Shown here: piece after piece, positions 15,179 to 53,129 of the stretch | Layout of the letters: each line of letters starts with the position of its first letter | Numbering within the stretch: position 1 is the first letter of the stretch | Assembly: GCA_031426355.1 (NCBI GenBank) | Contig: JANPLD010000118.1 | Location: forward strand, 3,477 to 67,476 | Direction of reading: 5' to 3' | Length of the DNA: 64,000 nucleotides | Source of the DNA: Alphaproteobacteria bacterium | GTDB taxonomy: Bacteria > Pseudomonadota > Alphaproteobacteria > Rickettsiales > UBA8987 | Notes under the pieces: model-generated | Told to the model about the DNA's origin: nothing | The model's input: the letters and a program-made list of their open reading frames with translations, nothing else | Databases searched by the model: none | Translations under genes and position numbers: made by a program

Positions 15179-15237
15179 AGTTTGAGATCTGAAGCTGAAA
15201 GAAGTTATAATAATCTTCAAACTTCCAACTTCAAACT
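15179..15237. repeat. palindrome with heptad-array arms (TTGAAG/CTTCAAA family) in secY-adk spacer
   Basis: Left arm agtttgagatctgaagctgaaagaag, right arm cttcaaacttccaacttcaaact; right arm is the reverse complement of the array at 51744-51767. Confidence 0.6.
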
Positions 15238-15241
15238 AAAT

Positions 15242-16603
15242 CTACCTTTTTCTTCTTCCACCTTTCATACTGGTCTTCTTGAGAAGCCCTTCATACTGAT
15301 GCGCAATTAAATGGGAATGTATCTGCGCGATAGTATCCATAGTAACATTCACCACGATTAAAAGCGAAGTACCACCAAGATAGAACGGCACACTATATTT
15401 GGCAATAAGCAATTCCGGTATCACACATAGAATTGATAGATACGCCGCGCCCAGAACAGTTATACGGTTCATTATATAAGTGATATAATCCGCCGTATTT
15501 TTCCCCGGCCTGATCCCCGGTATAAACCCACCGTTCTTTTTCAGGTTCTCTGCAGTTTCGGTTGGGTTGAACACATTACTCATATAGAAGAAACAGAAGA
15601 ACGTTATCAGCACAACATACATAAATATATAAAGCGGCTTTCCATGCCCGAGATAAAGATTTATCGCCTGTAATATCTCATTCTCAGAACCACCCGTTCC
15701 CATTGAAAACCCCGATATCGTTGCAGGGAATAACAATAGTGAAGATGCGAATATCGGAGGTAACACACCAGCAGTATTTAATTTTAGTGGCAGATAAGTA
15801 TTCTCACCCTGGTATTGCTTATTACCAACTGTTCTTTTCGGATATTGCACTATCAGCCTGCGTTGCGCCCTTTCCATAAATACTATGAATGCTATCAGCG
15901 CCGCTATAAGCACAACTATCAGGATAATGAATGTAGTTGAGATAGCGCCCGTTCTGCCAAGCTCAAAAGTTTTTGAGATAGCAGAAGGTAAGTTCGCCAC
16001 GATACCTGCAAATATGATCAGTGATATCCCGTTGCCGATACCTCTGGAAGTTATCTGCTCACCGAGCCACATCAGGAACAATGTTCCGCCGATCAGGGAT
16101 ATAACTATCGTTACTGTAAATAATACTCCCGGATTTAACACCGCGGTCTGCCCGTCCAGATTAATGGATTGCAGATATGAAGCTATACCATAACCCTGAA
16201 TACCCGCCATAAACACCGTACCAACACGTGTATACTGCTGTATCTTCCTTCTACCTGCCTCACCGCCATCCTTACGTAACTGGCTAAGCGCCGGATACAT
16301 CACTGTTACCAGCTGCACTACAATTGATACCGTGATATAAGGCATAACGTTAAGTGCGAATATGGTCATACGGCTAAGCGCGCCGCCTGAGAACATATCA
16401 AATATACCAAGTATGCCCTGCGAATGCATTTCAAACATTCTGTTAAGCACCCTTGAATCAACACCCGGGAGAGGAATATAAGTTCCTAAACGATATACAA
16501 GTAAAGCCCCGAGAACGAACAGAAGCCTTTTTTTGAGTTCCTGAGCCTTACCAAACGCGGAAAGGTTTATATTGGAAGCCATTTTTTCAAAACTGGAAGC
16601 CAT
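15242..16603 (-). CDS. secY: preprotein translocase subunit SecY
   Basis: 453 aa, 10 TM pattern, GALSRMTIFALNVMPYIT, GIGNGISLIIFAGIV. Confidence 0.95.
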   Translation of the reverse strand: MASSFEKMASNINLSAFGKAQELKKRLLFVLGALLVYRLGTYIPLPGVDSRVLNRMFEMHSQGILGIFDMFSGGALSRMTIFALNVMPYITVSIVVQLVTVMYPALSQLRKDGGEAGRRKIQQYTRVGTVFMAGIQGYGIASYLQSINLDGQTAVLNPGVLFTVTIVISLIGGTLFLMWLGEQITSRGIGNGISLIIFAGIVANLPSAISKTFELGRTGAISTTFIILIVVLIAALIAFIVFMERAQRRLIVQYPKRTVGNKQYQGENTYLPLKLNTAGVLPPIFASSLLLFPATISGFSMGTGGSENEILQAINLYLGHGKPLYIFMYVVLITFFCFFYMSNVFNPTETAENLKKNGGFIPGIRPGKNTADYITYIMNRITVLGAAYLSILCVIPELLIAKYSVPFYLGGTSLLIVVNVTMDTIAQIHSHLIAHQYEGLLKKTSMKGGRRKR

Positions 16604-16716
16604 TTTATGGTATTTATTAGTGGTTATTACGGCTACATTGAATCCGCATATTTCGCTTGGGTTCTAAACGAAAAAAACATATGAATAAATAGAAATTTAC
16701 AAAATAAATACAAGCT

Positions 16717-16748
16717 TTAACGTTTTGTTAACCAAGATTATGTATATT
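16717..16748 (+). promoter_or_regulatory. CtrA-type box plus -10: TTAA-cgttttg-TTAAC-caagattatg-TATATT
   Basis: Perfect TTAA-N7-TTAAC, N10, -10-like hexamer ending 22 nt before ATG 16771 (SD aggaaa). Confidence 0.6.
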
Positions 16749-16770
16749 CTAATAAAATAGTCAGGAAATC

Positions 16771-17832
16771 ATGATACCTAAACAACCTACCGAACTAGAA
16801 AGTAATTTTCCAAAAGTTGCTAGCGCCTATAATAAGGTAAGAGAAGAACTTTATGACAGATTAAATAGCAATATGCTAAAACCTGCTGATTGGCAATTTC
16901 CCGAAATAAAAGTAGATTTAGATTTTAAATATGGCTCAACTTTTATCCCCTCAAAAAATCAAATTACTTTTTCTGGTCCAGCAGCACTTAACATGGATGA
17001 AAAAGCCATTTACGAATATATAAAAAATACAGCAATCTATTCACAAAAATTTCCTTCGGTATTTAAGGCTTATGAGAGAGCTATTAACTACACTTTAGAG
17101 AACTTACATAAAATCCCTAATAGAAGAAAGGATTGGGAGCCACCCAGATTAAATTTTACATATGAATATAATCCTGCTGGATATTCCCCGGGGGCAAACA
17201 TAATACACTTCTGCACACAAGATGCAGCAATAGGAGATAAAGATTCTACATATCACAAGTTTTGTCATGAAATTAGACATAGCCTTAATAAAATACCTTT
17301 TTTAGAAAAATTATTAGCTTCCAGAAAAACTGACACAGCTTTTAGAGCTACGGCAGTAGGATTATCACTAGCCGCAGGATTATATGCAAAAATGACTGGC
17401 CAAAATGTAGCTAGTTCATTTTCGCTAATGGCATTTTCAACTACCGCACTTTATAATTATTTTAATATTGCAAAATCACTAATGATACCTTCAGATTACA
17501 TAACAAAATCCAAAGGTAATAGAGTAGAAATTGAATGTGACACTTTTTCTGCAAATGATATATCAACTGCAAATGCCTTTATTCAACTACCACATTCCAA
17601 AGGTACCATAGGAGAAACAAAACCGATAATTGAAAATCTACCACAGGCTATAAAAATATGTTCCGAACTTTATTTACAGCCAGATTATTTAAAAAAACCA
17701 AGAAAACAAAATTTACTTCAAAATTTAGGGTTAGCGCCTTTTAAGCCAAAAAGTCATCCTTCCGAGGCAACTAGGTTTAGAAATATTATAGAAACTATAA
17801 CCTCTCAAGAAAACCCAAATATACAAAGATAA
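16771..17832 (+). CDS. M48-like zinc metallopeptidase (divergent), inserted antisense between rplO and secY
   Basis: 353 aa; HEIRH (HExxH), two hydrophobic segments, then NRVEIECDTFSA (compare M48 SRxxExxADxxA third-ligand motif) ~85 aa downstream and C-terminal SHPSEATRF (compare M48 sHPp...R); N-terminal internal duplication (ADWQFPEIK / KDWEPPRLN). Confidence 0.6.
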   Translation: MIPKQPTELESNFPKVASAYNKVREELYDRLNSNMLKPADWQFPEIKVDLDFKYGSTFIPSKNQITFSGPAALNMDEKAIYEYIKNTAIYSQKFPSVFKAYERAINYTLENLHKIPNRRKDWEPPRLNFTYEYNPAGYSPGANIIHFCTQDAAIGDKDSTYHKFCHEIRHSLNKIPFLEKLLASRKTDTAFRATAVGLSLAAGLYAKMTGQNVASSFSLMAFSTTALYNYFNIAKSLMIPSDYITKSKGNRVEIECDTFSANDISTANAFIQLPHSKGTIGETKPIIENLPQAIKICSELYLQPDYLKKPRKQNLLQNLGLAPFKPKSHPSEATRFRNIIETITSQENPNIQR

Positions 17833-17854
17833 TTACTAACAAATCTAAACAAAA

Positions 17855-17886
17855 ATCCCCGCCACATCATTAAAATGGGCGGGGAT
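17855..17886 (-). terminator. Rho-independent-type hairpin directly after rplO (and after the convergent M48-like gene)
   Basis: 9-bp GC-rich stem atccccgcc / ggcggggat, 14-nt loop; on the minus strand followed by tttttgttt. Confidence 0.65.
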
Positions 17887-17912
17887 TAAATTCTGTTCAA
17901 AAGAAAAACTAA

Positions 17913-18569
17913 CTATTTCTTCTCAGCTTTTGGCTTTATTGATTTAGCTTTTACAGGTCTTTTAGCTTTAGCAACCTTCGGGCCAGATTTAACACCTTCA
18001 GCTTTCGGTTCAGTCTTAGCTTTTACTGCTTTCACTTTAGGAGTTTTTCTTACTTCTTTCCTTTCAGCTTTTTTAGCTTCTTTTTCTTCTTTAGTATCGT
18101 AAACTTTGCCTGATGGCATCAATATCTTTCCACCTGCTTTCTCAACTGCTGCTTTAGCAGATTCAGATGCTTTACAAACTGATATTTCGATTTTAGATTT
18201 AAGTTCACCGCCGCCAAGAAGTTTAATTCCTGTAAGTCTGTTCTTAGTTAAACCTGCTGCTTTCAAAGTATCAGCATTTATTCCAGCTGCCTGAAGTTTA
18301 CCCGCATCAATTGCATTCTGTATGTCAGACAAGCTAACTACTTCAAATACTTTAGCAGAGAAATTATTAAAACCTCTTTTAGGAAGCCTTCTATGTATAG
18401 GCGTTTGACCACCTTCAAAACCTTTGATCGCAACACCTGAACGTGCAGTCTGGCCTTTACCGCCTCTGCCGCAAGTTTTACCTTTACCGGAACCTATTCC
18501 GCGGCCAACTCTCATCCTTCTGTGAGCCGAGCCCTGATTTCCAACTAATTTATTTAATGTAAATGTCAT
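17913..18569 (-). CDS. rplO: 50S ribosomal protein L15 with ~70-aa Lys/Ala-rich C-terminal extension
   Basis: 218 aa; N-terminal RVGRGIGSGKGKTCGRGGKGQ; tail EEKEAKKAERKEVRKTPKVKAVKAKTEPKAEGVKSGPKVAKAKRPVKAKSIKPKAEKK. Confidence 0.95.
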   Translation of the reverse strand: MTFTLNKLVGNQGSAHRRMRVGRGIGSGKGKTCGRGGKGQTARSGVAIKGFEGGQTPIHRRLPKRGFNNFSAKVFEVVSLSDIQNAIDAGKLQAAGINADTLKAAGLTKNRLTGIKLLGGGELKSKIEISVCKASESAKAAVEKAGGKILMPSGKVYDTKEEKEAKKAERKEVRKTPKVKAVKAKTEPKAEGVKSGPKVAKAKRPVKAKSIKPKAEKK

Positions 18570-18594
18570 AACACCTAAGTTTTAGTAATTTATT

Positions 18595-18789
18595 TTAACC
18601 TTCAACAACTTCTATAAGATGCTGAACTTTTTTTATCATGCCCCTTACTTCAGGAGTATCAATAAGAACTTTTTCCCTGCGGTTCTTGTTCAAGCCAAGG
18701 CCGATAAGGATCTGCTCTTGCTTATATATTCTGCCGATATGGCTTCCGATCTGCCTTACCGTGATTGTTTTTTTTGCATTTGTTGCCAT
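18595..18789 (-). CDS. rpmD: 50S ribosomal protein L30
   Basis: 64 aa; position between rpsE and rpl[10 protein letters not shown]-type motif. Confidence 0.9.
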
Positions 18790-18814
18790 AAAATCAGCTC
18801 TTATAATTCTGTTA

Positions 18815-19405
18815 TTATTCTTCAGTTGCGTTAGCTACATCTAAAGTAGTTTTTTTACCTTTAGCATCAACACCACCTACTTTACCTTCTCTCTGGATAA
18901 CAATCTCATTGATCTTTTTACCCCTTCTAGCAGCAGTAGATTTAGGAGACTGGAACATCTGTAACGCTTTGAACGTACTAGCTACCATGTTATATGGGTT
19001 AGTAGAACCTGTAGATTTAGCAACAACGTCTTTTATTCCGAGAACTTCGAATACAGCACGCATTGGGCCACCAGCTATGATTCCGGTTCCTGGAGGTGCA
19101 GTCCTGATAATAATATCACCTGCTCCCGCCCCTGCTCTGATATCATGGTGAACAGTTCTACCTTCACGCATTGGAACACGTATCATATTCTTTTTAGCAG
19201 CTTCGCTTGCTTTTCTTCTTGCATCGGCAACTTCTTTAGCCTTTCCTTTGCCAACTCCTACTTTACCTTTACCATCACCACAAACAACGAGTGCAGAAAA
19301 ACCAAAACGGCGTCCACCTTTCACAACTTTAGTAGTTCTGTTAATAGCAACCAACTTCTCTTGTAAGTCGCCTTCTTGTCTTTCTTTTTCAGGTGCTCTG
19401 CTCAT
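18815..19405 (-). CDS. rpsE: 30S ribosomal protein S5
   Basis: 196 aa; [27 protein letters not shown], operon position. Confidence 0.95.
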
Positions 19406-19438
19406 TTAAAAACCTATATAAATTTAGAATATTACTAA

Positions 19439-19786
19439 TTAAAATTTTAATCCCGCTTCCCTAGCTGCATCAGCTAAAGCTTTAATTCTGCCGTGATATA
19501 TGAAGCTTCCTCTATCAAAAACAACTTCATTCACTTTTTTCTCTTTAGCTCTTTTAGCTATAAGGCTACCGATAGCTTTTGCTGCTTCAATATTACAACC
19601 TTTACCTTTAAGGTCCTTTTCAACAGTTGATGCAGAAGCTAAAGTTACACCGTTAGTATCGTCAATAACCTGAACATGAATGTTCTTATTAGAACGGAAA
19701 ACAGAAAGCCTAGGTTTGCCGCCCGAAACTTGCCTGAGTTTATATCTTACTCTTCCGGCTCTTTTTTGATTTAAATTTTTAGTCAT
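19439..19786 (-). CDS. rplR: 50S ribosomal protein L18
   Basis: 115 aa; [45 protein letters not shown]. Confidence 0.95.
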
Positions 19787-19812
19787 ATAACTTAGTAGTT
19801 CTATTTTAATTA

Positions 19813-20358
19813 TTATTTCTTCTTGCCTTCTTTAGATCTCACATACTCACCAGAGAATCTTATACCTTTTCCTTTGTAAGGCTCAGGTTTCTTATAAGCT
19901 CTGATCTCAGCAGCAACTTGTCCAACCAGCCTTTTATCAATACCGGAGATAGTGATCTCAGTTGGCTTAGGAGTTTTAAGCTCAATACCTTCAGGTATCT
20001 TGTAATCTATATCGTGAGAGAAACCTAAATTGAGTTTTACGCTTTTGCCAGAAGCAGCAGCTTTAAAACCTACACCTTGTATCTCAAGAGTTTTAGTATA
20101 ACCTTTAGTTACACCTTCAACCATATTCCTAACTTGAGCGCGTGTCAGACCCCAGAAAGCTTTAACCCTCTTGTCATTCTTGCGTGATTCATTAGCAGGC
20201 TTGAAAGAAACATGTTCCTTATCAATAATAACTGCAATATCGTCAGAAACAACAAATGATAAAGTACCTTTTGGACCTTTCACGTTGATCTTTTTGCCGT
20301 CGAGTTTGATCTCAACGCCTTTTTCTATTGCTACCGGATTGTTACCTACTCTTGACAT
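19813..20358 (-). CDS. rplF: 50S ribosomal protein L6
   Basis: 181 aa; MSRVGNNPV start, EPYKGKGIR near C-terminus. Confidence 0.95.
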
Positions 20359-20399
20359 AAAATAAAATTATTGTGCTCTTATTAAATATTGTTCTCTTA

Positions 20400-20798
20400 T
20401 TAAAACACTTCACAGATAACTTCACCACCAACATTGAGCCTTCTAGCTTCAAAGTCAGGGAGAACACCTTTAGAGGTCGAAATTATCTTAACGCCAAGAC
20501 CGCTGAAAGACTTACCGAGATCTTTGATCTGCGAATAGTTCCTTAATCCTGGTTTAGAAGTTCTTTTGATCTGCTTTATAACCGGTTGACCTTGGTGGTA
20601 TTTCAAAGCAACGTTTAATCTTTTAATACCTTTGATCTCTTCAACTTCTTCAAAAGAGTTGATGAAACCTTCATTTTGCAGAACGTTAAGAACATTCTTG
20701 TTTAATCCGCTAGATACAACCGTAACAGCCGCGAGCTTAGCTCTCTGGCCATTGTTCAAAGTTGCGATCATATCAGATGTTGAATCATTAAATGACAT
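20400..20798 (-). CDS. rpsH: 30S ribosomal protein S8
   Basis: 132 aa; DMIATLNNGQRA, GGEVICEVF terminus. Confidence 0.95.
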   Translation of the reverse strand: MSFNDSTSDMIATLNNGQRAKLAAVTVVSSGLNKNVLNVLQNEGFINSFEEVEEIKGIKRLNVALKYHQGQPVIKQIKRTSKPGLRNYSQIKDLGKSFSGLGVKIISTSKGVLPDFEARRLNVGGEVICEVF

Positions 20799-20803
20799 AT
20801 TTA

Positions 20804-21109
20804 TTACCAGCTAGATTTAATAACACCAGGAACTTGCGCTATAGCGCTAAGATCCCTTAAAACGATACGGGAAACACCGAATTTCCTTAAATAACCTCTC
20901 GCACGGCCAGTAACCGCGCAACGGTTACGTATCCTCGCAGGAGCGCTGTTTTTAGGAAGTCTCGACATCTTAAGAACAGCAGTAAACCTATCTTCCTGAG
21001 AAGTCTCCTTGTTCATAACGATAGCTTTAAGTTTCGCTCTCCTCTTACCGAATTCCTTAGAGAGCCTCTTTCTCATTTCATTCTTTTCTATTGAGCTTTT
21101 CTTAGCCAT
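20804..21109 (-). CDS. rpsN: 30S ribosomal protein S14 (long form)
   Basis: 101 aa; [30 protein letters not shown] terminus. Confidence 0.95.
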
Positions 21110-21113
21110 AAAA

Positions 21114-21713
21114 TTAATTATTATTATTTTCAGTTGTTATAAATGGAATATTGAAACCTTGTAACAGCGCCTTGCCTTCTTCAGCATTTTTAGCAGTTGT
21201 AACTATAGTTATATCCATACCCCTTACAGCATCAACCTTATCAAAAGGGATCTCAGGGAATATTGTCTGCTCTTTCAAGCCAAAGCTGATATTACCCGCG
21301 CCGTCAAAACTTTTAGGATTTAAACCTTTAAAATCACGAAGCCTAGGAAGAACTATGTTCACAAGCCTGTCGAGGAATTCGTACATTTTCTTATTTCTGA
21401 GAGTAACCTTTGTACCGATAGGCTGACCTTCGCGGAGCCTCCAGGTAGCAATAGATTTTCTTGATTTTGTGATTATTGATTTCTGGCCTGTTATAGCTGT
21501 AAGTTCCGCAGCTGCGTTATCAACAGCTTTTGATTCACGGAGAACCTCACCAACACCCATATTAACTGATATTTTAACCAGTTTAGGAACTTGCATAGGA
21601 TTTTTATATCCGAACTGCTTTATGATCGCAGGAGATATATTATCTCTATATTCTTTTTGCAATCTCGCTTCTTCCTTAGAAACTGAAACCGCTTTTTTTT
21701 CTGTTTTGGCCAT
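21114..21713 (-). CDS. rplE: 50S ribosomal protein L5
   Basis: 199 aa; operon position; [23 protein letters not shown]. Confidence 0.95.
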
Positions 21714-21732
21714 ATAAATAATTTTAAACCTC

Positions 21733-22074
21733 TTATGCTAAGATCTCACCAGATTTCCTGGCAAATCTAACTTTTTTTCCGTCCTCAAGCTTCTTGTATC
21801 CCACTTTAGTAGCTGAACCTGACTTAGGATCAATAAGTGAAACATTAGAAACGTGAATTGATAATTCTTTATCGATTATTCCGCCAGTAGAAGCAGCGCT
21901 CGCTTTAGTATGTTTTTTGGCAATATTGATGCCTGAAACAAGAACCCTGTCTTTCTCCTTAAGAACCCTTAAAATTTCGCCTTCTTTACCTTTGTCTTTC
22001 CCAGCGAGGATCTTAACTTTATCGCCTTTTTTAACGCGAAATTTCTTTTCAAATTTTGTAAGTGCTTTAGCCAT
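21733..22074 (-). CDS. rplX: 50S ribosomal protein L24
   Basis: 113 aa; [26 protein letters not shown] motif. Confidence 0.95.
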
Positions 22075-22077
22075 ATA

Positions 22078-22449
22078 TTATAATACCTCTGGAGCTAATG
22101 AAATTATCTTTGCATATGCTTCTTTACCGCGAAGCTCCCTGGTTACCGGTCCGAATACGCGGGTTCCGATAAGGTCAAGTTTCTTGTCTACAAGAACAAC
22201 TGCATTTGTATCAAACCTGATAGCAGTACCATCAGATCTTTTTGTTTCTTTCCTGGTCCGGACCACAACCGCTCTGTGTACGCTACCTTTTTTTGCTTTA
22301 CCGCGTGGCGCAGCTTCCTGAACGGAAACTACTATAATGTCACCAACACCTGCATATCTTCTCTTGGAAGAACCCAGAACTTTGATGCATCTTACTGATT
22401 TAGCACCGCTATTATCAGCTACCAGTAATTTTGTTTCTTGTTGTATCAT
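22078..22449 (-). CDS. rplN: 50S ribosomal protein L14
   Basis: 123 aa; [17 protein letters not shown]. Confidence 0.97.
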
Positions 22450-22517
22450 AAATTTTACTCATTTTCCTAAAGAACACGAACGCGCTACATACCAAAAGCG
22501 CAACTCAAGTCAATTGT

Positions 22518-22832
22518 TTATTTCTTCTTAGGAGCCTTTTTTACAGAAGTAGTTGCCTTCTTCTGTTGGTTTCTTGCCGGCTCTTGCTTAGTTTCAGCAG
22601 TATCAGAGTATATTACGGTCCATTTTTTAGATTTAGAGATAGGAGCCGTTTCTACTATTGAAACCACATCACCTTCTTTGAAGTGGTTCTTCTCATCATG
22701 AGCGTGATACTTCTTAGATTTGGTAATGATCTTTTGGTAAATTGGGTGACGAACCCTTCTGTCTACTTTTACAGTAACAGTTTTTTCGTTCTTATCACTT
22801 ACAACAACACCTTTTAAAATTCTTTTTGGCAT
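22518..22832 (-). CDS. rpsQ: 30S ribosomal protein S17 with Lys-rich C-terminal extension
   Basis: 104 aa; [27 protein letters not shown], extra ~25-aa tail ending KKAPKKK. Confidence 0.93.
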
Positions 22833-22860
22833 AACCCTTATTTTTATTAAGCAATTTTTA

Positions 22861-23055
22861 TTAAGCAGCTTCTTCTAAAGTAGTCAGATAAGTCTGGATC
22901 CTTGCGATCTCTTTTCTAACTTGTGCGAATCTATGAGTTTTATCAAGCTCGCCCGTTGATTTACGGAAACGGAGATTGAAAACCTCTTTTTTACGCTCAG
23001 CAATAAGCTTAGTAAGCTCATCAACTGTTTTTCCTTTTAAATCCTGGTACTTCAT
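22861..23055 (-). CDS. rpmC: 50S ribosomal protein L29
   Basis: 64 aa; operon position, ELxxLxxELFNLRF pattern. Confidence 0.93.
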
Positions 23056-23060
23056 ATAAC

Positions 23061-23471
23061 TTATACGATTCTTTTAATAAATTTTGTTTTGATAGGTAAT
23101 TTAGCTGCAGCTTTGGTCATTGCTTCCCTAGCTGTTGCTTCATCAACCCCACCGAGTTCGAACATTATTGTTCCCGGTTTAACTCTTGCAGCCCAGAACT
23201 CAACTGGCCCTTTACCTTTACCTTGACGAACTTCCAAAGGTTTTTTAGTAACTGGAAGTGAAGGGAATATTCTTATCCACAATTTACCGGTACGTTTCAT
23301 TGAACGGGTAATAGTTCTACGTGCAGCTTCGATCTGGCGCGCAGTAATTCTTTCCGGCGCAAGTGCTTTCAGACCATAATCACCGAAATTAAGCTCATAA
23401 CCAGCTTTTGCATTCCCGTGAATACGACCTTTAAAAGCTTTCCTGAACTTCGTCTGTTTTGGCATCATCAT
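23061..23471 (-). CDS. rplP: 50S ribosomal protein L16
   Basis: 136 aa; [25 protein letters not shown]. Confidence 0.96.
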
Positions 23472-23500
23472 AAAAAAACTCCGTATCGTAATTACTTAAA

Positions 23501-24172
23501 TTATTTAACCCCTAATATTCTCTTCTCGTGAGCATATGGATCATGGGCAAGTATCTCACCTTTATATATCCATACTTTCACACCTAGAACGCCATAAGTT
23601 GTATGACCTTCTGAAGTTGAATAATCAACATCCGCACGAAGAGTGTGAAGAGGAACCCTACCTTCACGATACCATTCAGTACGAGCGATCTCACCACCGT
23701 TTAAACGGCCAGAGATCGTAACTTTTATACCTTGCGCGCCCATTCTCATTGCAGACTGCATAGAACGTTTCATCGCTTTCTTGTAAGACACACGACGCTC
23801 AAGCTGCTGCGCTATACCTTGCGCAACTATTGATGCATCAATTTCAGGCTTACGTATCTCAACTATATTTATGCTGGCTTCATCTTTAGTGAATCTGCCA
23901 ACTGATTTTTTGATATCTTCAATATCAGCACCTTTTTTACCGATGATTATACCAGGCTTAGAAGTATATATGGAAACCCTGATCTTATTAGCTGAACGCT
24001 CTATGATAATTCTGCTTACAGATGCTTCTTTCAGTTTTTTCTCAAGAAAAGCCTTGATCTTAACATCTTCGTGGAATTTTTTCGTATAGTCCTTCCTTCC
24101 CGCAAACCAACGAGAATCCCAGGTACGGTTCATACCTACTCTAAAAACAATCGGATTTACTTTTTGTCCCAT
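23501..24172 (-). CDS. rpsC: 30S ribosomal protein S3
   Basis: 223 aa; [15 protein letters not shown] domain [10 protein letters not shown]. Confidence 0.96.
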
Positions 24173-24188
24173 ATCTTACTTTTTTTGT

Positions 24189-24264
24189 TAGTACTTGGTA
24201 CTTAGTACCTGGTACTTGGTTAATTAATAAATCTAAGTACCGAGTACTAAGTACCCGGCACTAA
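24189..24264. repeat. 76-nt imperfect palindrome with GTAC-heptad arms inside the S10 operon (rplV-rpsC spacer)
   Basis: Left arm ttagtacttggtacttagtacctggtacttgg; reverse complement of right arm ttagtgccgggtacttagtactcggtacttag; 25/31 identical plus 3 G-U-compatible positions; 13-nt AT loop. Confidence 0.75.
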
Positions 24265-24270
24265 ATACTT

Positions 24271-24645: not shown

Positions 24646-24671
24646 AACAACTACGTTGCTTAAATTTTAAA

Positions 24672-24947: not shown

Positions 24948-24990
24948 ATATTTTAACTACTTATATTAAATTCTTAAAGTTATAGTTTAA

Positions 24991-25827: not shown

Positions 25828-25831
25828 ATTA

Positions 25832-26131: not shown

Positions 26132-26135
26132 ACAA

Positions 26136-27866: not shown

Positions 27867-27911
27867 AATTTCAACTTTGTTAAAAAGCTATTCCGATTAA
27901 TTTTAGCATTT

Positions 27912-27960
27912 CGGAACTTCAGAACCTCAGAATTTCTTTATTTCTGAGCTTCTGGAATCC
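27912..27960. repeat. heptad-array hairpin in the rpsJ (S10 operon) leader
   Basis: ggaacttcagaacctcagaat ... tttctgagcttctggaatcc; arms built of (C/A)(T/C)TCAGA heptads, related to the CTTCAAA family; 46-94 nt upstream of rpsJ ATG. Confidence 0.55.
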
Positions 27961-28042
27961 TAAATTCCCTCTTTCGAGGTTGCGCCTTCTAACCGAAATA
28001 TTATGGCATGTCAAACAAGAAAGTGAAAATAAATAAAGAATA

Positions 28043-31463: not shown

Positions 31464-31506
31464 TCATATACAACGACTAAATCCTAAATACTAACAACTA
31501 GCATAT

Positions 31507-38595: not shown

Positions 38596-40023
38596 TTAAT
38601 GTCCACCATCACTTAATTTTAATCCGTAAACAGACAATATTCCATTTATCTTATCCTTAAGAGCATCAAGCTCAGCCTCTGAATTACCTTCCGCGCGGAT
38701 ACTGATAGCACTTTGCGTGTTAGAAGAACGCACCATCCACCACCCGCCTTTTTCCATTACCCTTATCCCGTCGATCTCGCTTACTTCCGCAGGAGATTCT
38801 TTTATTTTTGCTCGTATTTCTTCCACTATCCTGAGTTTATCAGCTTCAGGAACCATTATACGGTATTCAGGCGATGCATAAGATTTCGGCAATTTTGAAA
38901 CTGCGTCACTTGGCTTAAGTTTTCTTTTTACAAAATAATTTATCAGGCGAACTGCCGCATAGACCGCATCATCATATCCATAATTCTTATCATTAAAGAA
39001 AATATGCCCGCTCATTTCCCCTGCTAACGGTGCGCCGGTTTCCATAAGCTTCTGCTTGATGAATGAATGCCCGGTTTTCCATATTATAGCCTCACCGCCA
39101 AACTCCTTAACCTTATCAAAGAATGCCTGACTGGCTTTCACATCCGCGATTATCTTTGCACCTTTAATATCCGCCAGAACATCATCGGCAAAAAATATCA
39201 TCATCTGATCACCCCAGATTATCCGCCCTTCTCCATCCACAGCACCGATCCTGTCACCATCACCATCAAATGCCAATCCAATGTCGCATTTCTCTTTTTT
39301 TACCAGATCAATTAGCTGTTGTAAATTCTCCGCAACTGTCGGGTCTGGATGATGCGCCGGAAAATTCCCGTCGATCTTTTCATTTATCAGGAAATGTTTT
39401 GCCGGAATTCTTTTTACCAGCTCCCCAACTATCTCACCCGCAGAACCATTCCCCGGATCCCACGCTATTTTAAGGTCTTTTAGGAATTCATTTGAACCTT
39501 CTAGCGCTCCCGCAAGGTTGTTCAAATATTCTTCTTTCACAGGAAAATTATGAACCACTCCTTTGCCTTCTGCAAAATCCCCAGCCTCACACATGCGGCC
39601 TATTTCTTTTATTTCTTCACCAAACAGCGGCGCCTTATTATACATCATCTTAAAACCATTATCCTGCTTCGGGTTATGCGATGCAGTAATAACCATCCCA
39701 CCATCCATATTTTTAGAGCGCACAGTAAAATACACCATCGGGCTTGGTCCAACGCCTATGTCAAACACTTCAGCTCCGGCATCCACCAAACCTTTTATAA
39801 CTTCCGCTTTTAATGACGGCGTTGATATCCTACCATCATAACCAAGCACGAGCTTTGGGTTTTTATTATTTGTTTTTCTGATTATCTTGGTCGCAAATGC
39901 GCGCGCTATATAATAAGCATCTTCCGTAAATATCTGTTTCCCCACTTCCCCGCGTATATCATACGCCCGCAGCGCCGTTGAATTTAAAACTTTAGAGGGG
40001 GTAAGGGAAAAGGGGTAAGGCAT
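38596..40023 (-). CDS. phosphomannomutase/phosphoglucomutase (alpha-D-phosphohexomutase)
   Basis: 475 aa; active-site TASHNP, metal loop DGDGDR, GEMSGH; first 9 codons lie inside a heptad repeat array so the start is uncertain. Confidence 0.9.
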   Translation of the reverse strand: MPYPFSLTPSKVLNSTALRAYDIRGEVGKQIFTEDAYYIARAFATKIIRKTNNKNPKLVLGYDGRISTPSLKAEVIKGLVDAGAEVFDIGVGPSPMVYFTVRSKNMDGGMVITASHNPKQDNGFKMMYNKAPLFGEEIKEIGRMCEAGDFAEGKGVVHNFPVKEEYLNNLAGALEGSNEFLKDLKIAWDPGNGSAGEIVGELVKRIPAKHFLINEKIDGNFPAHHPDPTVAENLQQLIDLVKKEKCDIGLAFDGDGDRIGAVDGEGRIIWGDQMMIFFADDVLADIKGAKIIADVKASQAFFDKVKEFGGEAIIWKTGHSFIKQKLMETGAPLAGEMSGHIFFNDKNYGYDDAVYAAVRLINYFVKRKLKPSDAVSKLPKSYASPEYRIMVPEADKLRIVEEIRAKIKESPAEVSEIDGIRVMEKGGWWMVRSSNTQSAISIRAEGNSEAELDALKDKINGILSVYGLKLSDGGH

Positions 40024-40032
40024 AAGGGATAT
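39998..40032. repeat. array of five GGNNTAA heptads (left arm flanking the four-helix-bundle gene)
   Basis: ggggtaa gggaaaa ggggtaa ggcataa gggatat; reverse complement reads CCTTNNN heptads like the right arm. Confidence 0.75.
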
Positions 40033-40033
40033 A

Positions 40034-40405
40034 TTATATTTTTGTTTTTAGAACTTTTCGTAATGTATTAAGCATTTTTTCTATCTCTCTTATATTTAAA
40101 AATATCTCTTTTAAATCTTCTTTTTTACAAAGCTCAATATCAAAACAAATTATTAATTGCGTTTCAACTTCTGCAAGGGATCCAAGTGCTATGGATAAAA
40201 AATTGATAAAATCTTTTGTACTTCTCCTCGTATGACCTTCAGCAATATTGGAAGGTACAGAAACTGCCGATTTCCTAACTTGAGAAGTAATCCCATATAA
40301 TTCCTCTTTTGGAAACTTCCTTGATAAAAAATATACGTCTTTTGCTAAAATCCTCGCCTTTTTCCAAACCTCTAAATCCCTAAAACTTTTTATCTCTTTT
40401 GTCAT
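40034..40405 (-). CDS. four-helix-bundle protein (23S rRNA intervening-sequence protein / Avd-like family)
   Basis: 123 aa; FRDLEVWKKA...FPKEELYGITSQVRKSAVSVPSNIAEG...FLSIALGSLAEVETQL is the family signature. Confidence 0.9.
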   Translation of the reverse strand: MTKEIKSFRDLEVWKKARILAKDVYFLSRKFPKEELYGITSQVRKSAVSVPSNIAEGHTRRSTKDFINFLSIALGSLAEVETQLIICFDIELCKKEDLKEIFLNIREIEKMLNTLRKVLKTKI

Positions 40406-40410: not shown

Positions 40411-40445
40411 CCTTATCCCTTCCCCCTTAAGCCTTATCCCTATTG
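40411..40445. repeat. array of five CCTTNNN heptads (right arm flanking the four-helix-bundle gene)
   Basis: ccttatc ccttccc ccttaag ccttatc cctattg; inverted with respect to 39998-40032; a related array lies at 41962-41994. Confidence 0.75.
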
Positions 40446-41960: not shown

Positions 41961-41961
41961 A

Positions 41962-41994
41962 CCCAACTCCTAACTCCCAACGCCTTATTCCCAA
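41962..41994. repeat. heptad array (CCNAANN / CCTTATT type) abutting the squalene-synthase stop codon
   Basis: ctaaccc aactcct aactccc aacgcct tattccc aatcacg; end resembles 40430-40445 (gccttatccctattg vs gccttattcccaatc). Confidence 0.55.
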
Positions 41995-43693: not shown

Positions 43694-44329
43694 CTAACTC
43701 ACAATATCTTTTACAAATGGAATAGTTATATTCCTTTTTTTCTCAAGGGATTGTTTGGAAATCACTGCTATCGACTCAATTATTTTTCTGTAATCGCGCT
43801 CCATTCTTTTTGAAAGGAACTCCACCACATCAATTGAAACCGTCATCTGCCTGTCAGAAAACAGCTTTATTATCAGCGCCTTTATAACCTCATCATCAGG
43901 CTTTTCTATTATGATATTATAAGCACTTGAGATGCGCGATTTCAGATCATCAGAAAAAGCTTCGCCTTTCGCCTCTTTTATTTCCGCAGCCGTTTTAGTT
44001 GAGGTCAGCAGTAACTTCCCCCCCTCATTATTAATTTTATTTATCAAATGAAATAACTCTTCCCCACCAGCCTTATCTAACTTCTCTATATCTTCAACTA
44101 ACTTCAAACTTCCATCTTCAAACCTCAAACTATTCTTACTGACCCATATATTCGCCAGATGCGTTTTCCCGCTCCCTTCAACTCCGCTAATTAGCGCAAT
44201 ATTCCCCACCCATTCCTCCAGCGGCGACATAACAAAATCAAATGCAGCCTTATTACTCGTTCCAACAATAAAATCGCTTTTTAAATAGCTTTCAAGATCA
44301 CTAAATTCTAATAAAAACTGTTTTGCCAC
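43694..44329 (-). CDS. hda: DnaA regulatory inactivator Hda/HdaA
   Basis: 211 aa; N-terminal QFLLEF clamp-binding-like motif, FIVGTSNKAAF, Walker A GVEGSGKTHL. Confidence 0.75.
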   Translation of the reverse strand: MAKQFLLEFSDLESYLKSDFIVGTSNKAAFDFVMSPLEEWVGNIALISGVEGSGKTHLANIWVSKNSLRFEDGSLKLVEDIEKLDKAGGEELFHLINKINNEGGKLLLTSTKTAAEIKEAKGEAFSDDLKSRISSAYNIIIEKPDDEVIKALIIKLFSDRQMTVSIDVVEFLSKRMERDYRKIIESIAVISKQSLEKKRNITIPFVKDIVS

Positions 44330-46525: not shown

Positions 46526-46640
46526 CAGATAATACGATAATACGTTTTCTTGGCAATAGGCAAAAACCGGGGAAGATAAAAAAGCCGGGAAAACATTTTG
46601 CGTATTTACGCATAATCGTCTAATCGTCTCATACATATAA
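46526..46640. repeat. inverted arrays of CG-phased octamers in the perM/purM divergent spacer
   Basis: Left ataatacg ataatacg (perfect tandem); right cgtattta cgcataat cgtctaat cgtctcat ... ccgtctaa, including perfect tandem taatcgtc taatcgtc; internal direct repeat aaaaaccgggga / aaaaagccggga. Confidence 0.6.
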
Positions 46641-46657
46641 CCGTCTAAATTTATATT

Positions 46658-51138: not shown

Positions 51139-51729
51139 TTATCCTTTGAACTTCAAATTATAAACTGATTTATATGTGGATTTATCTTTTTTATATTCTT
51201 CAATTTGCAATAAGGTTTCCTTATCCATATAATCAAGAAGCGGCTGTTTCACTGAAAACAACTTCTCCATGGCCGGCTTAATTTTTTCGTCCCATTCAGG
51301 ATAAAAATTATCAAAATCTGTTTTTCGTAAATATCTGCGGCACTTATCACCGCCGCAGCCATAAAGCTTCATTTCCGTTTCCCAGTTGAATATTCCGTAT
51401 TCATCAGTAACTTCTTCACCCGCCTGAATATCACGTATTGCTATCTCAAACCCATAACCGGTAGATATAGAATTCGGGTCACACGAATGGTTAACATATT
51501 TCGCGATATCCCAGCTTATCATACGAATTCCGAACTGGTCTATGGTGCTATATTTTTCAACTATCTCCCTGAACTTCGGGGAGAGTTTATTATAGGCCGC
51601 CTCATCAAAAAAATTCTCCAGTTCATCAATCACATATGTGATTGTGCCAGCGGGAATGAACTTCCGCGCGAATATTCCCGAGCCAATCTGCTCATTTATA
51701 AATCTTATCTCAGTATCAGGATGCATCAT
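51139..51729 (-). CDS. SET-domain protein (putative protein lysine methyltransferase)
   Basis: 196 aa; GIFARKFIPAGT, YVNHSCDPNS, GEEVTDEYG, Cys cluster CGGDKCRRY. Confidence 0.8.
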   Translation of the reverse strand: MMHPDTEIRFINEQIGSGIFARKFIPAGTITYVIDELENFFDEAAYNKLSPKFREIVEKYSTIDQFGIRMISWDIAKYVNHSCDPNSISTGYGFEIAIRDIQAGEEVTDEYGIFNWETEMKLYGCGGDKCRRYLRKTDFDNFYPEWDEKIKPAMEKLFSVKQPLLDYMDKETLLQIEEYKKDKSTYKSVYNLKFKG

Positions 51730-51734
51730 ATCAC

Positions 51735-52655
51735 TTAGTTTTTAGTTTGAAGATTGAAGTTGGAAGCGCTACTATTTCTTCTAAAAGCTTCCAGCGTATT
51801 TTTAAGCAAACAGGCTATAGTCATAGGCCCAACACCGCCGGGAACTGGAGTTACTGCAGAAGCAACTGAGGACACATCTGTAAAATCAACATCACCCACC
51901 AGTTTTGAATCAACACGGTTAATTCCTACATCAATAACAACTGCGCCTTCCTTCACCCAGTTGCGCTTTACAAGTAATGGCTTGCCTACTGCTACAACTA
52001 GTATATCCGCGCCTTTGCATACATCTTCAATATTCTTAGTTCTGGAATGGCAGATGGTTACCGTACAACCTTCATTAAGTAGAAGCTGGGACATCGGCTT
52101 GCCGACTATATTACTACGACCCACAACAACGGCATTCTTGCCGGAAATATTATCACCAAGAACATCTTTTACAAGAAGCAGGCAGCCTAGCGGAGTACAC
52201 GGCACCAGCGCATCTTTACTGCCCGTTACGAGCAGGCCGCGGTTCACAACGTGGAAACCATCAACATCTTTTGCGGGGGAAATCGTTTCAATTACCTTGT
52301 CTTCAGATATATTCTTCGGAAGCGGTAACTGAACAAGTATCCCATGTACTTCAGGATTATTATTCAACTCTTCTATCTTTGATATCAGCTCATTTTCAGA
52401 TATGCCGGAAGGGTATTTATATTCAAAATTCTGCATCCCGACTTCAACGGTCTGCTTTGACTTATTACGTACATAAACTTCAGATGCTGGGTCTTCTCCA
52501 ACAAGTATCACAGCCAGACCCGGCTGCTTACCGGTTTTAGCTTTAAGTTCGGCAACTTCATCTTTTATTCTAGCACGAAGCGTTTCTGCGAATTTTTTAC
52601 CATCTATTATTCTCGTCATTTTCATCTGGCTTGGTTTGACTGGTTGATAGGGCAT
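51735..52655 (-). CDS. folD: bifunctional methylenetetrahydrofolate dehydrogenase/cyclohydrolase
   Basis: 306 aa; [44 protein letters not shown]; last ~10 codons lie in a heptad repeat array. Confidence 0.95.
51744..51767. repeat. TTGAAG heptad array inside the folD 3' end
   Basis: ag tttgaag attgaag ttggaag c; near-identical to the reverse complement of 15215-15237. Confidence 0.6.
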
Positions 52656-52678
52656 TTTTCATAAGATTTCAAGGCCAA

Positions 52679-53002
52679 CTACCTTATGAGTGAGCCGTCA
52701 CTGTCAAACATATCGAGCTGAGAGAATAATTTATCGGTAAGATCCATAAATTTAGAGTTTTGTAAGGCTATAACCTGCTTCAGGTAATTCTCATCCCAGT
52801 ATCGCATTACTTTATCGCGCTCCATAGCATTCTCATGCTTTGAATGCATCTCATAATATAAAAGCTTGGAAAGTTTCTTTTCTTTTTTGGAATCGTTATT
52901 CTCACGTTTATGCTCGATCACTTTACGGGCAAGGTTGCGGCAGACATTTATAGCCATCACGCTGTTGTTATCATCGGTCATTATATAAACGTAGTAAGGC
53001 AT
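52679..53002 (-). CDS. GIY-YIG nuclease-superfamily small protein (degenerate second motif)
   Basis: 107 aa; YYVYIMT start, NLARKVIEHKRE, LLYYEMH....A..RDKVMRYW pattern of the small GIY-YIG (YhbQ-like) family. Confidence 0.6.
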   Translation of the reverse strand: MPYYVYIMTDDNNSVMAINVCRNLARKVIEHKRENNDSKKEKKLSKLLYYEMHSKHENAMERDKVMRYWDENYLKQVIALQNSKFMDLTDKLFSQLDMFDSDGSLIR

Positions 53003-53129
53003 TCGTTGATTCGTTGATTCGTTGTTTCGAATATAACAAAATAAAACAAACCAACAAAATCAAATATTACTTTAAAGAGTATTTGATTCCAAAAAACAAA
53101 TCAACGAATCAACAAAACAACGAATCAAC
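53002..53129. repeat. palindrome with TTCGTTGA octamer-array arms filling the whole fpr / GIY-YIG spacer
   Basis: Left ttcgttga ttcgttga ttcgttgt ttcg; right tcaacgaa tcaacaaa acaacgaa tcaac (inverse units); inner hairpin caaatattac...agtatttg. Confidence 0.75.

What the first reader, a model, noticed from the sequence alone, without database searches (positions are those of the whole stretch)
15179..53129. Palindromes whose arms are arrays of 7-8-nt tandem units: a structural class filling intergenic gaps
At least six spacers contain inverted repeats in which each arm is itself a short tandem array. (a) 15179-15237 in the secY-adk spacer, with CTGAAG/CTTCAAA heptads. (b) 24189-24264 in the rplV-rpsC spacer, with GGTACTT/AGTACCT heptads. 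(c) 27912-27960 in the rpsJ leader, with CTTCAGA heptads. (d) 39998-40032 and 40411-40445, with CCTTATC-type heptads bracketing a gene. (e) 46526-46640, with CGTATTAT-type octamers. (f) 53002-53129, with TTCGTTGA octamers. Some unit types recur at other loci. The TTGAAG array at 51744-51767 inside the folD 3' end is nearly the reverse complement of 15215-15237. The CCTTATT array at 41962-41994 resembles 40430-40445. So at least two sequence families are dispersed, while the architecture (phased arm arrays, AT-rich loop, exact fit between flanking genes) is shared by all. I do not recognise this as a described REP, RPE or MITE family.
Basis: seen in the sequence. Interest (0 to 1): 0.6.

Follow-up and report, generated by a model that had tools for sequence, protein, structure and literature searches.

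The report
Heptamer-armed hairpin cassettes between genes
Several gaps between genes of this uncultured Rickettsiales-like bacterium hold hairpins whose arms are runs of a 7- or 8-base word and its complement, one still enclosing a small 'rRNA intervening-sequence protein' gene; they are real and differ between related species, but they belong to a little-studied repeat type already seen in Xanthomonas, cyanobacteria and Coxiella.

Summary
The four strongest short-loop inverted repeats in the 64-kb window are (f), (b), (a) and (c), and all four have arms with 7- or 8-nt periodicity. Dinucleotide shuffles give none. (d) is a fifth pair; it brackets a PF05635/TIGR02436 four-helix-bundle gene. 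(e) is weak.

(a) and (b) are insertions: the orthologous spacers in relatives are 4-38 nt. Relatives carry the same architecture in other spacers, built from other words.

Polarity is constant relative to transcription. The G-rich array follows the upstream stop codon and the C/A-rich array precedes the next start codon.

The CTTCAAA/GTTTGAA word of (a) occurs in 56 metagenome contigs with GC from 24 to 70%. It is often paired, and in three contigs arrays of this word family flank a PF05635 gene. Every other PF05635 gene fetched was bracketed in the same way, each at a non-homologous site.

Published parallels are the inverted GGGAATC heptamer arrays of Xanthomonas, the TAACTGA arrays of Beggiatoaceae, and the Coxiella 23S rRNA intervening sequence.

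My reading is that these are gene-bearing and gene-less forms of one cassette type, whose arms pair in the operon RNA into a substrate for RNase III. The cleavage step is inferred, not shown. This is a new variant of a known kind.

The parts
15179..15237 (-). (a) Gene-less hairpin in the secY-adk spacer. On the sense strand the 5' arm is 15215-15237 (GTTTGAA/GTTGGAA heptads). The 3' arm, 15179-15205, is irregular.
   Evidence: RNA fold -18.1 kcal/mol on the sense strand against -12.9 on the antisense. In L089 secY and adk are 4 nt apart, and in L084 and L087 the calls overlap.
24188..24264 (-). (b) Gene-less hairpin in the rplV-rpsC spacer. The arms are GGTACTT/AGTACTC heptads (14-nt super-unit) and the loop is AT-rich.
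   Evidence: Fold -37.4 kcal/mol. The spacer is 98 nt here against 38, 26, 4 and 10 nt in L082, L083, L084 and L087. The sequence is identical in an independent Logan contig of the same sample.
27908..27965 (-). (c) Octamer-armed hairpin (TTCTGARG / CTCAGAAN) in the rpsJ leader.
   Evidence: The ends of the leader are conserved with L082, but the central part that holds the hairpin is not.
40411..40445 (-). (d) 5' arm. G-rich heptads on the sense strand (GGGATAA GGCTTAA GGGGGAA GGGATAA GGAA), running from the stop codon of the 118-aa gene to 5 nt before the cargo start codon.
   Evidence: Duplex with the 3' arm -38 kcal/mol against -19.7 +/- 3.5 for shuffled arms.
40034..40405 (-). (d) cargo: a 123-aa four-helix-bundle protein of the 23S rRNA intervening-sequence protein family (S23p, Avd-like).
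   Evidence: TIGR02436 E = 1e-38. PF05635 E = 4.5e-41. PDB 2GSC, Xanthomonas XCC0516, E = 1.3e-22.
39998..40031 (-). (d) 3' arm. C-rich heptads on the sense strand (CCCTTAT GCCTTAC CCCTTTT CCCTTAC CCC). It contains the pgm start codon at 40023 and the first 8 pgm codons.
   Evidence: L146 (pgm 81% identical) has a CCTTA-type array at the same ATG but no cargo gene.
53002..53129 (-). (f) Octamer-armed hairpin. On the sense strand the 5' arm is 53095-53128 (TTGATTCG units, starting at the TAG stop of the thioredoxin-reductase-like gene). The 3' arm is 53003-53029 (CGAATCAA units, ending at the ATG of a small GIY-YIG-like gene). The 53-70-nt loop contains its own small hairpin.
   Evidence: Fold -39.1 kcal/mol on the sense strand against -30.1 on the antisense.
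46526..46648 (.). (e) Two related octamer arrays in inverted orientation (46528-46544 GATAATAC; 46597-46648 CGTNTAAT) around a 50-nt core, between divergent genes. Pairing is weak.
41962..41994 (-). Solo array, G-rich on the sense strand (TTGGGAA TAAGGCG TTGGGAG TTAGGAG TTGGGTT), directly after the stop codon of the squalene/phytoene-synthase gene.
51735..51766 (-). Solo array of the CTTCAAA family. It encodes the last ~10 residues and the stop codon of FolD, and lies 5 nt upstream of the next gene.
44100..44130 (-). GTTTGAA-family array lying in frame inside the hda (DnaA-related) gene.
31477..31503 (+). Solo C/A-rich heptad array (CGACTAA ATCCTAA ATACTAA CAACTAG) ending 3 nt before a start codon. 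It is conserved in L082 with substitutions only.

Best explanation
The palindromes are the gene-bearing form (d) and gene-less forms (a, b, c, f) of one cassette type.

Anatomy: a G-rich tandem array of 7- or 8-nt units starts at or just after the stop codon of the upstream gene. A short AT-rich loop, or a PF05635 (S23p, Avd-like) gene, follows. The reverse-complement C/A-rich array then ends at or inside the start codon of the downstream gene. The orientation relative to transcription is always the same.

Affinities: they belong to the heptanucleotide repeat arrays known from Xanthomonas, cyanobacteria and Beggiatoaceae. They are built like the S23p-bearing intervening sequences of 23S rRNA, but they sit in mRNA spacers.

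How it most likely works:
- The element is co-transcribed with the operon.
- The two arms pair into a 17-31-bp RNA duplex.
- That duplex is cut by RNase III, as shown for the Coxiella intervening sequence. The cut splits the polycistronic RNA at that spacer, or releases the cargo mRNA.
- Arrays gain and lose units by replication slippage.
- Cassettes reach new spacers by an unknown copying step.

Shown here: anatomy, polarity, insertion polymorphism, dispersal, and linkage to PF05635 genes.
Inferred: co-transcription, RNase III cleavage (about 35-40% likely), slippage, and mobility of the cassette (about 50% likely).
For: - Periodic arms are specific to the strongest inverted repeats and are absent from shuffles.
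- Spacers (a) and (b) are 82 and 98 nt here but 4-38 nt in relatives. Relatives have the same architecture in other spacers with other words: L083 1889-1974, six spacers of L087, and L082 2130-2275.
- Within L087, two word families recur 2 and 4 times, all on the sense strand.
- The 5' arm is G-rich and the 3' arm C-rich in 14 of 14 informative elements, cargo-bearing or not.
- Sense-strand RNA folds better than antisense by at least 3 kcal/mol in 9 of the 13 elements with a defined sense strand.
- The 22-mer of (a) occurs in 56 metagenome contigs with GC 24-70%. Of 52 distinct loci, 12 have a G-rich partner within 150 nt upstream. In L090, L109 and L129, arrays of the same GTTTGAA/GTTGGAA word family flank a PF05635 gene; in L129 the matched 22-mer itself lies 1.4 kb from the gene.
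- All further PF05635 genes fetched (L150, L152, L154, two in L155) are bracketed by G-rich heptads upstream and C-rich heptads downstream. They lie between unrelated housekeeping genes (rsmB|rpe, serS|surE, HAD|6PGD).
- Published support:
  - The Coxiella intervening sequence has a 28-bp terminal-repeat stem cut by RNase III. It also has GACAGAT heptamers, variable in number between strains, upstream of S23p (PMC4990558).
  - Xanthomonas GGGAATC arrays show the same polarity, and 70-75 of them are inverted pairs (PMC4692102).
  - That paper's supplement places one array over the start codon of XCC0516, the best PDB match of the window's cargo protein.
Against: - No RNA data exist for this organism, so transcription through the elements and cleavage of them are untested.
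- The sense/antisense folding asymmetry could come from strand-biased C-to-T mutation rather than from selection on RNA. One element, L082 2130-2275, folds far better on the antisense strand.
- No remnant of a PF05635 gene is detectable in any hairpin loop.
- No target-site duplication or conserved terminal sequence is visible, and no transposase is present in the window.
- Some arrays are stable across about 15% DNA divergence (31477-31503 against L082 1815-1850), which suits slow local evolution as well as mobility.
- (e) lies in a divergent promoter region and pairs poorly.
- Only 64 kb of this genome could be examined.
Confidence: 0.55

Rival explanations
1. The arrays are purely local products. 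Heptamer simple-sequence repeats arise in situ by polymerase slippage. The second arm is created or corrected by intrastrand template switching at quasi-palindromes. The structures are neutral and non-mobile, and their link to PF05635 genes is incidental.
For: - Each locus tends to have its own word.
- Orthologous arrays in the window and L082 differ by substitutions and unit content at a fixed site.
- There are no target-site duplications and no transposase.
- Heptamers are the commonest long simple-sequence repeats in bacteria, and slippage has been proposed for them (cited in PMC4679880 and PMC4692102).
Against: - Near-identical 26-nt arms occur in two different spacers of L087. A 20-mer occurs there four times (twice exactly, once with 1 and once with 2 mismatches), all in one orientation.
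- The same 22-mer occurs in 56 contigs spanning GC 24-70%.
- All 9 PF05635 genes examined are flanked by arrays, with a constant polarity where both flanks could be read, and at non-homologous sites.
- Slippage alone does not predict a fixed orientation relative to transcription.
Confidence: 0.25
2. The elements are translational control devices. The C/A-rich array is an unstructured, Shine-Dalgarno-independent landing site for ribosomes (S1, CsrA or Csp type binding). Its pairing with the G-rich arm couples translation of the downstream gene to termination on the upstream gene.
For: - In (f) and (d) the arms abut or overlap the stop and start codons.
- 19 of 52 metagenome arrays are followed at once by an ORF start.
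- Solo C/A-rich arrays end 0-5 nt before start codons at 31477-31503 and 51735-51766.
- The same proposal has been made for TAACTGA arrays (PMC4679880).
Against: - The elements are absent from the same spacers in close relatives, so they are not a conserved part of the regulation of these essential operons.
- There is no general lag-7 signal upstream of the window's genes.
- (b) and (a) leave 15-19 nt between the arm and the start codon.
Confidence: 0.15
3. The elements are REP/REPIN-like or MITE-like, or Rickettsia palindromic elements, mobilised in trans by a RAYT (Y1) transposase or another transposase.
For: They are extragenic palindromes, dispersed and insertion-polymorphic. One PF05635 locus (L155) has a PF01797 Y1 transposase gene 2.3 kb away.
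Against: - No shared palindrome sequence exists among the window's elements.
- There are no terminal inverted repeats distinct from the arrays, and no target-site duplication.
- tblastn with the L155 Y1 transposase finds nothing in the window or the relatives' loci, and that gene is not flanked by arrays.
- Tandem-heptad arms are not, to my knowledge, a described feature of REP elements or of Rickettsia palindromic elements.
Confidence: 0.05
4. The elements are ordinary intrinsic terminators or attenuators.
For: They are stem-loops between genes. One sub-hairpin inside the 5' arm of (b) matches the terminator pattern.
Against: - Terminator-like matches occur at chance level: 9 against 8.9 expected, and 13 against 10.5.
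- No whole element is followed by a T-run on the sense strand.
- They sit inside the S10 and spc ribosomal-protein operons.
- They are not conserved in relatives.
Confidence: 0.02

Closest known systems
S23p-bearing intervening sequences of 23S rRNA (Coxiella burnetii, Leptospira; PMC4990558)
   Same: Both have a PF05635/S23p ORF enclosed by terminal inverted repeats that form a duplex of 28 bp or more, with tandem heptamers directly upstream of the ORF whose copy number varies. In Coxiella the stem is cut by RNase III. Item (d) has every one of these sequence features.
   Different: The window's elements lie between protein-coding genes of mRNA operons, not in helix 25 or 45 of 23S rRNA. Most have no ORF. 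Both arms are arrays, and the words differ from locus to locus.
GGGAATC / GGGGA(C/T)T heptamer repeats of Xanthomonas and Nostoc, including inverted pairs (PMC4692102)
   Same: Both are intergenic tandem heptamers. [quoted passage not shown] They are commonest between co-oriented genes. Xanthomonas has 70-75 convergent pairs able to form stem-loops, and length varies between species. One array overlaps the start of XCC0516, an S23p-family gene.
   Different: Xanthomonas has one dominant G3-tract word per genome, which was interpreted as a G-quadruplex former. Here there are many words, mostly without G-tracts, and also octamers. The link to PF05635 genes was not drawn in that paper.
TAACTGA heptamer arrays of Beggiatoaceae, cyanobacteria and Bacteroidetes; cyanobacterial STRR heptamers (PMC4679880)
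   Same: Both are heptamer arrays a few nucleotides upstream of start codons, including internal spacers of ribosomal-protein operons. Both show a patchy cross-phylum distribution of the same word.
   Different: The TAACTGA arrays are almost all direct arrays (169 direct sets against one inverted set), not hairpins.
REP/BIME/REPIN elements and Rickettsia palindromic elements
   Same: All are short extragenic palindromes that fill spacers and vary between strains. Rickettsia palindromic elements can also be read through in frame, as arrays are here in hda, folD and pgm.
   Different: Those families are defined by conserved sequences, and REPs also by an associated RAYT transposase. To my knowledge their arms are not tandem arrays.

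Membership tests
Heptanucleotide long simple-sequence repeat / STRR-type arrays (Mrazek 2007 as cited in PMC4679880; PMC4692102) | Tandem units of 7 nt (5-11 nt), three or more copies, more frequent than chance | tested here: met
   Lag 7 gives 6 segments and lag 8 gives 5, against 0-2 at other lags. TRF rows.
Heptanucleotide long simple-sequence repeat / STRR-type arrays | Bias towards non-coding DNA, close to gene ends | tested here: met
   7 of 11 segments lie in the 8.5% of the window that is non-coding.
Heptanucleotide long simple-sequence repeat / STRR-type arrays | [quoted passage not shown] | tested here: met
   14 of 14 informative elements.
Heptanucleotide long simple-sequence repeat / STRR-type arrays | One dominant word per genome (GGGAATC, TAACTGA, STRR1-3) | tested here: not met
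   At least six different words in 64 kb.
S23p-bearing 23S rRNA intervening sequence | ORF of the PF05635 / TIGR02436 family | tested here: met
   Item (d) only.
S23p-bearing 23S rRNA intervening sequence | Terminal inverted repeats forming a long stem around the ORF | tested here: met
   Arm duplex -38 kcal/mol, about 5 SD below shuffled arms.
S23p-bearing 23S rRNA intervening sequence | Located in helix 25 or 45 of 23S rRNA | tested here: not met
   It lies between a 118-aa ORF and pgm. There is no rRNA in the window (no Rfam match).
S23p-bearing 23S rRNA intervening sequence | Excision by RNase III | not testable with these tools
   No RNA data. The only run holding this organism is a DNA metagenome.
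REP / REPIN | Conserved 20-40-nt imperfect palindrome shared by the copies | tested here: not met
   The arms of a, b, c, d and f share no sequence.
REP / REPIN | Cognate RAYT (Y1 transposase) gene in the genome | tested here: inconclusive
   None in the 64-kb window by tblastn.
MITE | Terminal inverted repeats plus target-site duplication | tested here: not met
   No direct repeats flank (a) or (b) when compared with the empty sites of relatives.
Rickettsia palindromic elements | Membership of one of the conserved RPE sequence families | not tested
   No RPE reference sequences were available. The architecture (tandem-heptad arms) differs from RPEs as I know them.
Intrinsic terminator | GC-rich stem followed by a U-run on the transcribed strand | tested here: not met

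The most novel reading that the evidence does not exclude
Gene-less heptamer-armed hairpins are the non-autonomous derivatives of a pan-bacterial mobile cassette. The cargo of that cassette, the pentameric Avd-like PF05635 protein, recognises arms built from its own heptamer and takes part in copying or maintaining the cassette. One element type would then explain three old puzzles: cyanobacterial STRR heptamers, the excess of heptamer repeats in bacteria, and the origin of 23S rRNA intervening sequences.
Probability: 0.25. Interest if true: 0.85.

Novelty: new variant of a known kind. Interest (0 to 1): 0.55.

Why it matters
Heptamer arrays have been catalogued for decades as STRR repeats, long simple-sequence repeats, G-quadruplex repeats and TAACTGA repeats, with no agreed origin or function. 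The S23p-bearing intervening sequences of rRNA likewise have no known source.

This window and the loci fetched from it show the same arm-cargo-arm layout in ordinary operon spacers of an uncultured alphaproteobacterium, and in contigs with GC from 24 to 70%. The layout has a fixed polarity and a physical link to PF05635 genes.

That link gives concrete experiments in culturable carriers such as Xanthomonas campestris, around XCC0516. There one could test RNase III processing of operon mRNAs, binding of the four-helix-bundle pentamer to heptamer arms, and gain or loss of cassettes.

For annotation, the arrays supply start codons, N-terminal residues and C-terminal tails of neighbouring proteins (pgm, FolD, Hda here). 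They also break assemblies and gene calls.

Tried and rejected
I used these loci as negative controls.
- Rfam at gathering thresholds: no match in the window.
- TRF counts per period discriminated poorly at low score. I replaced them with a lag-identity scan.
- Idea that the arms of (b) grew around an ancestral spacer core. The loop ATTAATTAA aligns with the L082 spacer, but two almost pure A/T strings share a 9-mer by chance about 30% of the time, so no inference was drawn.
- Remnants of a PF05635 gene in hairpin loops: only noise, with E above 1.
- Y1/RAYT transposase: none in the window or the relatives' loci.
- A general 7-nt periodicity upstream of all genes: not present, 0.323 against a baseline of about 0.305.
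- Empty site for (d): the closest pgm homologue (81%, L146) has a different upstream neighbour, and more distant relatives are not syntenic. Exact insertion boundaries could therefore not be defined.
- Laying the Logan contigs of the source run on 15000-28100 gave fragmented contigs at about 7x depth and no information on polymorphism.
- The GIY-YIG-like gene next to (f) as cargo: it lies outside the hairpin and has no array after its stop codon.

Full report
**Source and context**

The window is a MAG contig from a freshwater-sediment metagenome. It has 39% GC. It carries the S10, spc and secY-adk ribosomal-protein cluster on the minus strand.

Its RpsC is 95% identical to one Logan contig (L082). 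It is 80-82% identical to MAGs labelled Rickettsiales or Alphaproteobacteria (L083, L084, L087), and 58-67% identical to named alphaproteobacteria. In shared genes, L082 is about 85% identical to the window at the DNA level.

Everything about this genome therefore rests on 64 kb.

**Checking the observation**

All six cited places were read.

- (b), (f) and (d) are clear inverted repeats whose arms are tandem 7- or 8-nt arrays.
- (c) is built of octamers, with about 2.5 units per arm.
- (a) has one regular heptad arm and one irregular arm.
- (e) has related octamer arrays in inverted orientation, but they pair poorly. It lies between divergent genes.

An ungapped Watson-Crick detector finds 13 short-loop stems. 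The four with at least 18 matched bases are f, b, a and c, and each has the same 7- or 8-nt lag in both arms. Twenty dinucleotide shuffles give a mean of 0.85 such stems and no periodic one. In 1.23 Mb of other alphaproteobacterial loci there are two comparable elements, both in one MAG, L015.

Lag-identity segments are enriched only at lags 7 and 8 (6 and 5, against 0-2 at other lags). Seven of those 11 fall in the 8.5% of the window that is non-coding.

The arms of (d) form a duplex of -38 kcal/mol, against -19.7 +/- 3.5 for shuffled arms.

The claimed recurrences hold for the CTTCAAA word: 15215, 44102 with one mismatch, and 51735-51766 in reverse complement. The resemblance between 41962-41994 and 40431-40440 is weak.

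**Not terminators, not a known RNA family**

- Rfam gives no match.
- Terminator-like sites occur at chance level, and no whole element is called as one.
- The elements sit inside essential operons.

**Comparison with relatives**

- The rplV-rpsC spacer is 98 nt here. It is 38, 26, 4 and 10 nt in L082, L083, L084 and L087.
- The secY-adk spacer is 82 nt here. It is 4 nt, or an overlap, in L089, L084 and L087.
- The rpsJ leader keeps its ends in L082 but not the part that holds (c).
- The relatives have the same architecture elsewhere: the rpsC-rplP spacer of L083, six spacers of the L087 operon, and L082 2130-2275. Each uses its own words.
- In L087 the arms recur between spacers. GTCAGAGATCAGGTTT occurs twice. 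ACTGATACTAATTACTGATA occurs four times with at most two mismatches. All copies are on the sense strand.
- Some solo arrays are conserved between the window and L082, differing only by substitutions (31477-31503 against L082 1815-1850).

**Polarity**

On the transcribed strand the 5' arm is G-rich and the 3' arm is C-rich in 14 of 14 informative elements. This covers the window, L083, L087 and the PF05635 cassettes.

Sense RNA folds better than antisense by at least 3 kcal/mol in 9 of the 13 elements with a defined sense strand. Three are roughly equal and one is strongly reversed. This asymmetry could be mutational rather than selected, so I do not lean on it.

**The cargo gene**

The gene bracketed by (d) is a 123-aa four-helix-bundle protein:

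- TIGR02436, E = 1e-38.
- PF05635 '23S rRNA intervening sequence protein', E = 4.5e-41.
- Best solved relative: Xanthomonas XCC0516, PDB 2GSC.

The G-rich arm ends 5 nt before its ATG. The C-rich arm contains the ATG and the first eight codons of pgm.

I fetched four homologues at 54-59% identity. In every case G-rich heptads lie directly upstream. C-rich heptads lie directly downstream wherever the sequence extends that far. The genes are wedged between unrelated housekeeping genes: rsmB|rpe, serS|surE, after a PAPS-reductase (PF01507) gene, and twice around a HAD gene before 6PGD. Closer proteins have closer arm words: GGGATTA/GGCATTA against GGGATAA/GGCTTAA in the window.

**The word of (a) elsewhere**

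An exact scan of metagenome contigs with CTTCAAACTTCCAWCTTCAAAC gave 56 contigs, 52 of them distinct, with GC from 24 to 70%.

- 12 have a G-rich partner within 150 nt upstream.
- 4 have a partner downstream.
- 5 have a partner at 150-800 nt.
- 19 are followed at once by an ORF start.

In L090 and L109 the long 'loop' is a PF05635 gene. L129 has a PF05635 gene flanked by related arrays, 1.4 kb from the matched 22-mer. No PF05635 gene occurs in the 1.23 Mb of controls.

**Literature**

- PMC4692102 (Rehm et al. 2015) describes GGGAATC heptamers in Xanthomonas.
  - They show the same gene-relative polarity.
  - 70-75 of them are convergent pairs able to form stem-loops.
  - Array length varies between species, and the arrays are transcribed.
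  - The paper's supplementary table places one array 6 nt from XCC0517 and over the start codon of XCC0516.
  - I found no remark on that link in the passages I read.
- PMC4679880 (MacGregor 2015) describes TAACTGA arrays a few nucleotides upstream of start codons, including inside ribosomal-protein operons. It also summarises the observation that heptamers are the commonest long repeats in bacteria.
- PMC4990558 (Warrier et al. 2016) characterises the Coxiella intervening sequence.
  - It has a 28-bp terminal-repeat stem that is cut by RNase III.
  - It carries GACAGAT heptamers, variable in number between strains, upstream of the S23p ORF.
- Full-text searches for PF05635, TIGR02436 and S23p found almost nothing else.

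**Earlier notes of this scan**

One search returned notes reporting the same architecture, and the same link to PF05635, in Acidobacteria, Akkermansia relatives, Clostridia and others. I treat those notes as leads. The link was seen independently here before that call and was tested further afterwards.

**Interpretation**

The simplest account covering all of this is one cassette type: G-rich array, then cargo or a short loop, then C-rich array. It is inserted in one orientation between a stop codon and the next start codon.

The stems are 17-31 bp long, which is long enough for RNase III. The one experimentally studied relative, the Coxiella intervening sequence, is cut there. I therefore favour RNase III processing of the operon RNA as the molecular consequence. 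This step is inferred.

Unit-number change by slippage and spread of cassettes to new spacers are also inferred. No transposase, target-site duplication or cargo remnant was found.

The main rival is purely local slippage plus template switching. That rival does not explain the near-identical arms at different loci, the same 22-mer across very different genomes, the fixed polarity, or the consistent flanking of PF05635 genes.

**Verdict**

Mechanism and mobility remain open.

Noticed in passing
window 39998-40031; 51735-51766; 44100-44130: Arrays contribute coding sequence to neighbouring genes. The pgm start codon and its first 8 codons (MPYPFSLT) lie in the C-rich arm of (d). The last ~10 residues of FolD (SNFNLQTKN) and its stop codon are a CTTCAAA array. 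A GTTTGAA array lies in frame in hda, between the Walker A and Walker B motifs.
   Followed up: partly
window 16771-17832 (+), 17833-17912: A 353-aa ORF with no Pfam or NCBIfam match lies on the opposite strand between secY and rplO. It is followed by a GC-rich terminator-like hairpin (CCCCGCC...GGCGGGG). In L084 and L087, rplO and secY are 25-90 nt apart, so the spc operon is interrupted here.
   Followed up: partly
window 41792-41961: The 203-nt spacer after the solo array at 41962-41994 is packed with small GC-rich hairpins (CCCTCTCC...GGAGAGGG, GGGTGAGGG...CCCTCACCC). A similar CCCTCTCCC...GGGAGAAGGG hairpin occurs in L083 7280-7620.
   Followed up: no
L092, L101, L111, L138 (metagenome contigs): Several G-rich/C-rich hairpin units of the GTTGGAA/CTTCAAA family lie inside one long open frame, read as ...NGASRKLEVGS...TSNFKL... 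This recalls the in-frame insertions of Rickettsia palindromic elements. The ORF has no Pfam match.
   Followed up: partly
L015 9891-9988 and 14143-14257: A distant alphaproteobacterial MAG among the controls has two hairpins with heptad arms (CAGAAAT/CGGAAGT against TTTCCGG/TTTCAGG).
   Followed up: no
PMC4692102 supplementary file 2, repeat #15 (Xanthomonas campestris 622956-622983): A GGGAATC array lies 6 nt from XCC0517 (bccP) and overlaps the start codon of XCC0516. XCC0516 is the S23p-family protein of PDB 2GSC and the best structural match of the window's cargo protein.
   Followed up: partly
L083 7280-7620 and 9327-9534: A 28-nt palindromic repeat (TGTCACCYCGCATTTATTGCGGGGTTAA) occurs at least three times in two spacers. 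It is a separate repeat family, without heptad arms.
   Followed up: no
L082 505-1205; L087 18506-19379; window 52679-53002: Small GIY-YIG-like genes (96-111 aa) recur in these genomes. In L082 and L087 they are surrounded by GC-rich repeats of the type CGTCATTGCGAG...GGATTGCTTCG. In the window, one starts exactly at the end of hairpin (f).
   Followed up: partly
window 24236-24262 (-) and 15182-15211 (+): The 5' arm of (b) is self-complementary, because GTAC is a palindrome, and it matches the terminator pattern on its own. Inside (a), the antisense strand has an 11/12 match to the sigma-70 promoter consensus. Both are pattern matches only.
   Followed up: no
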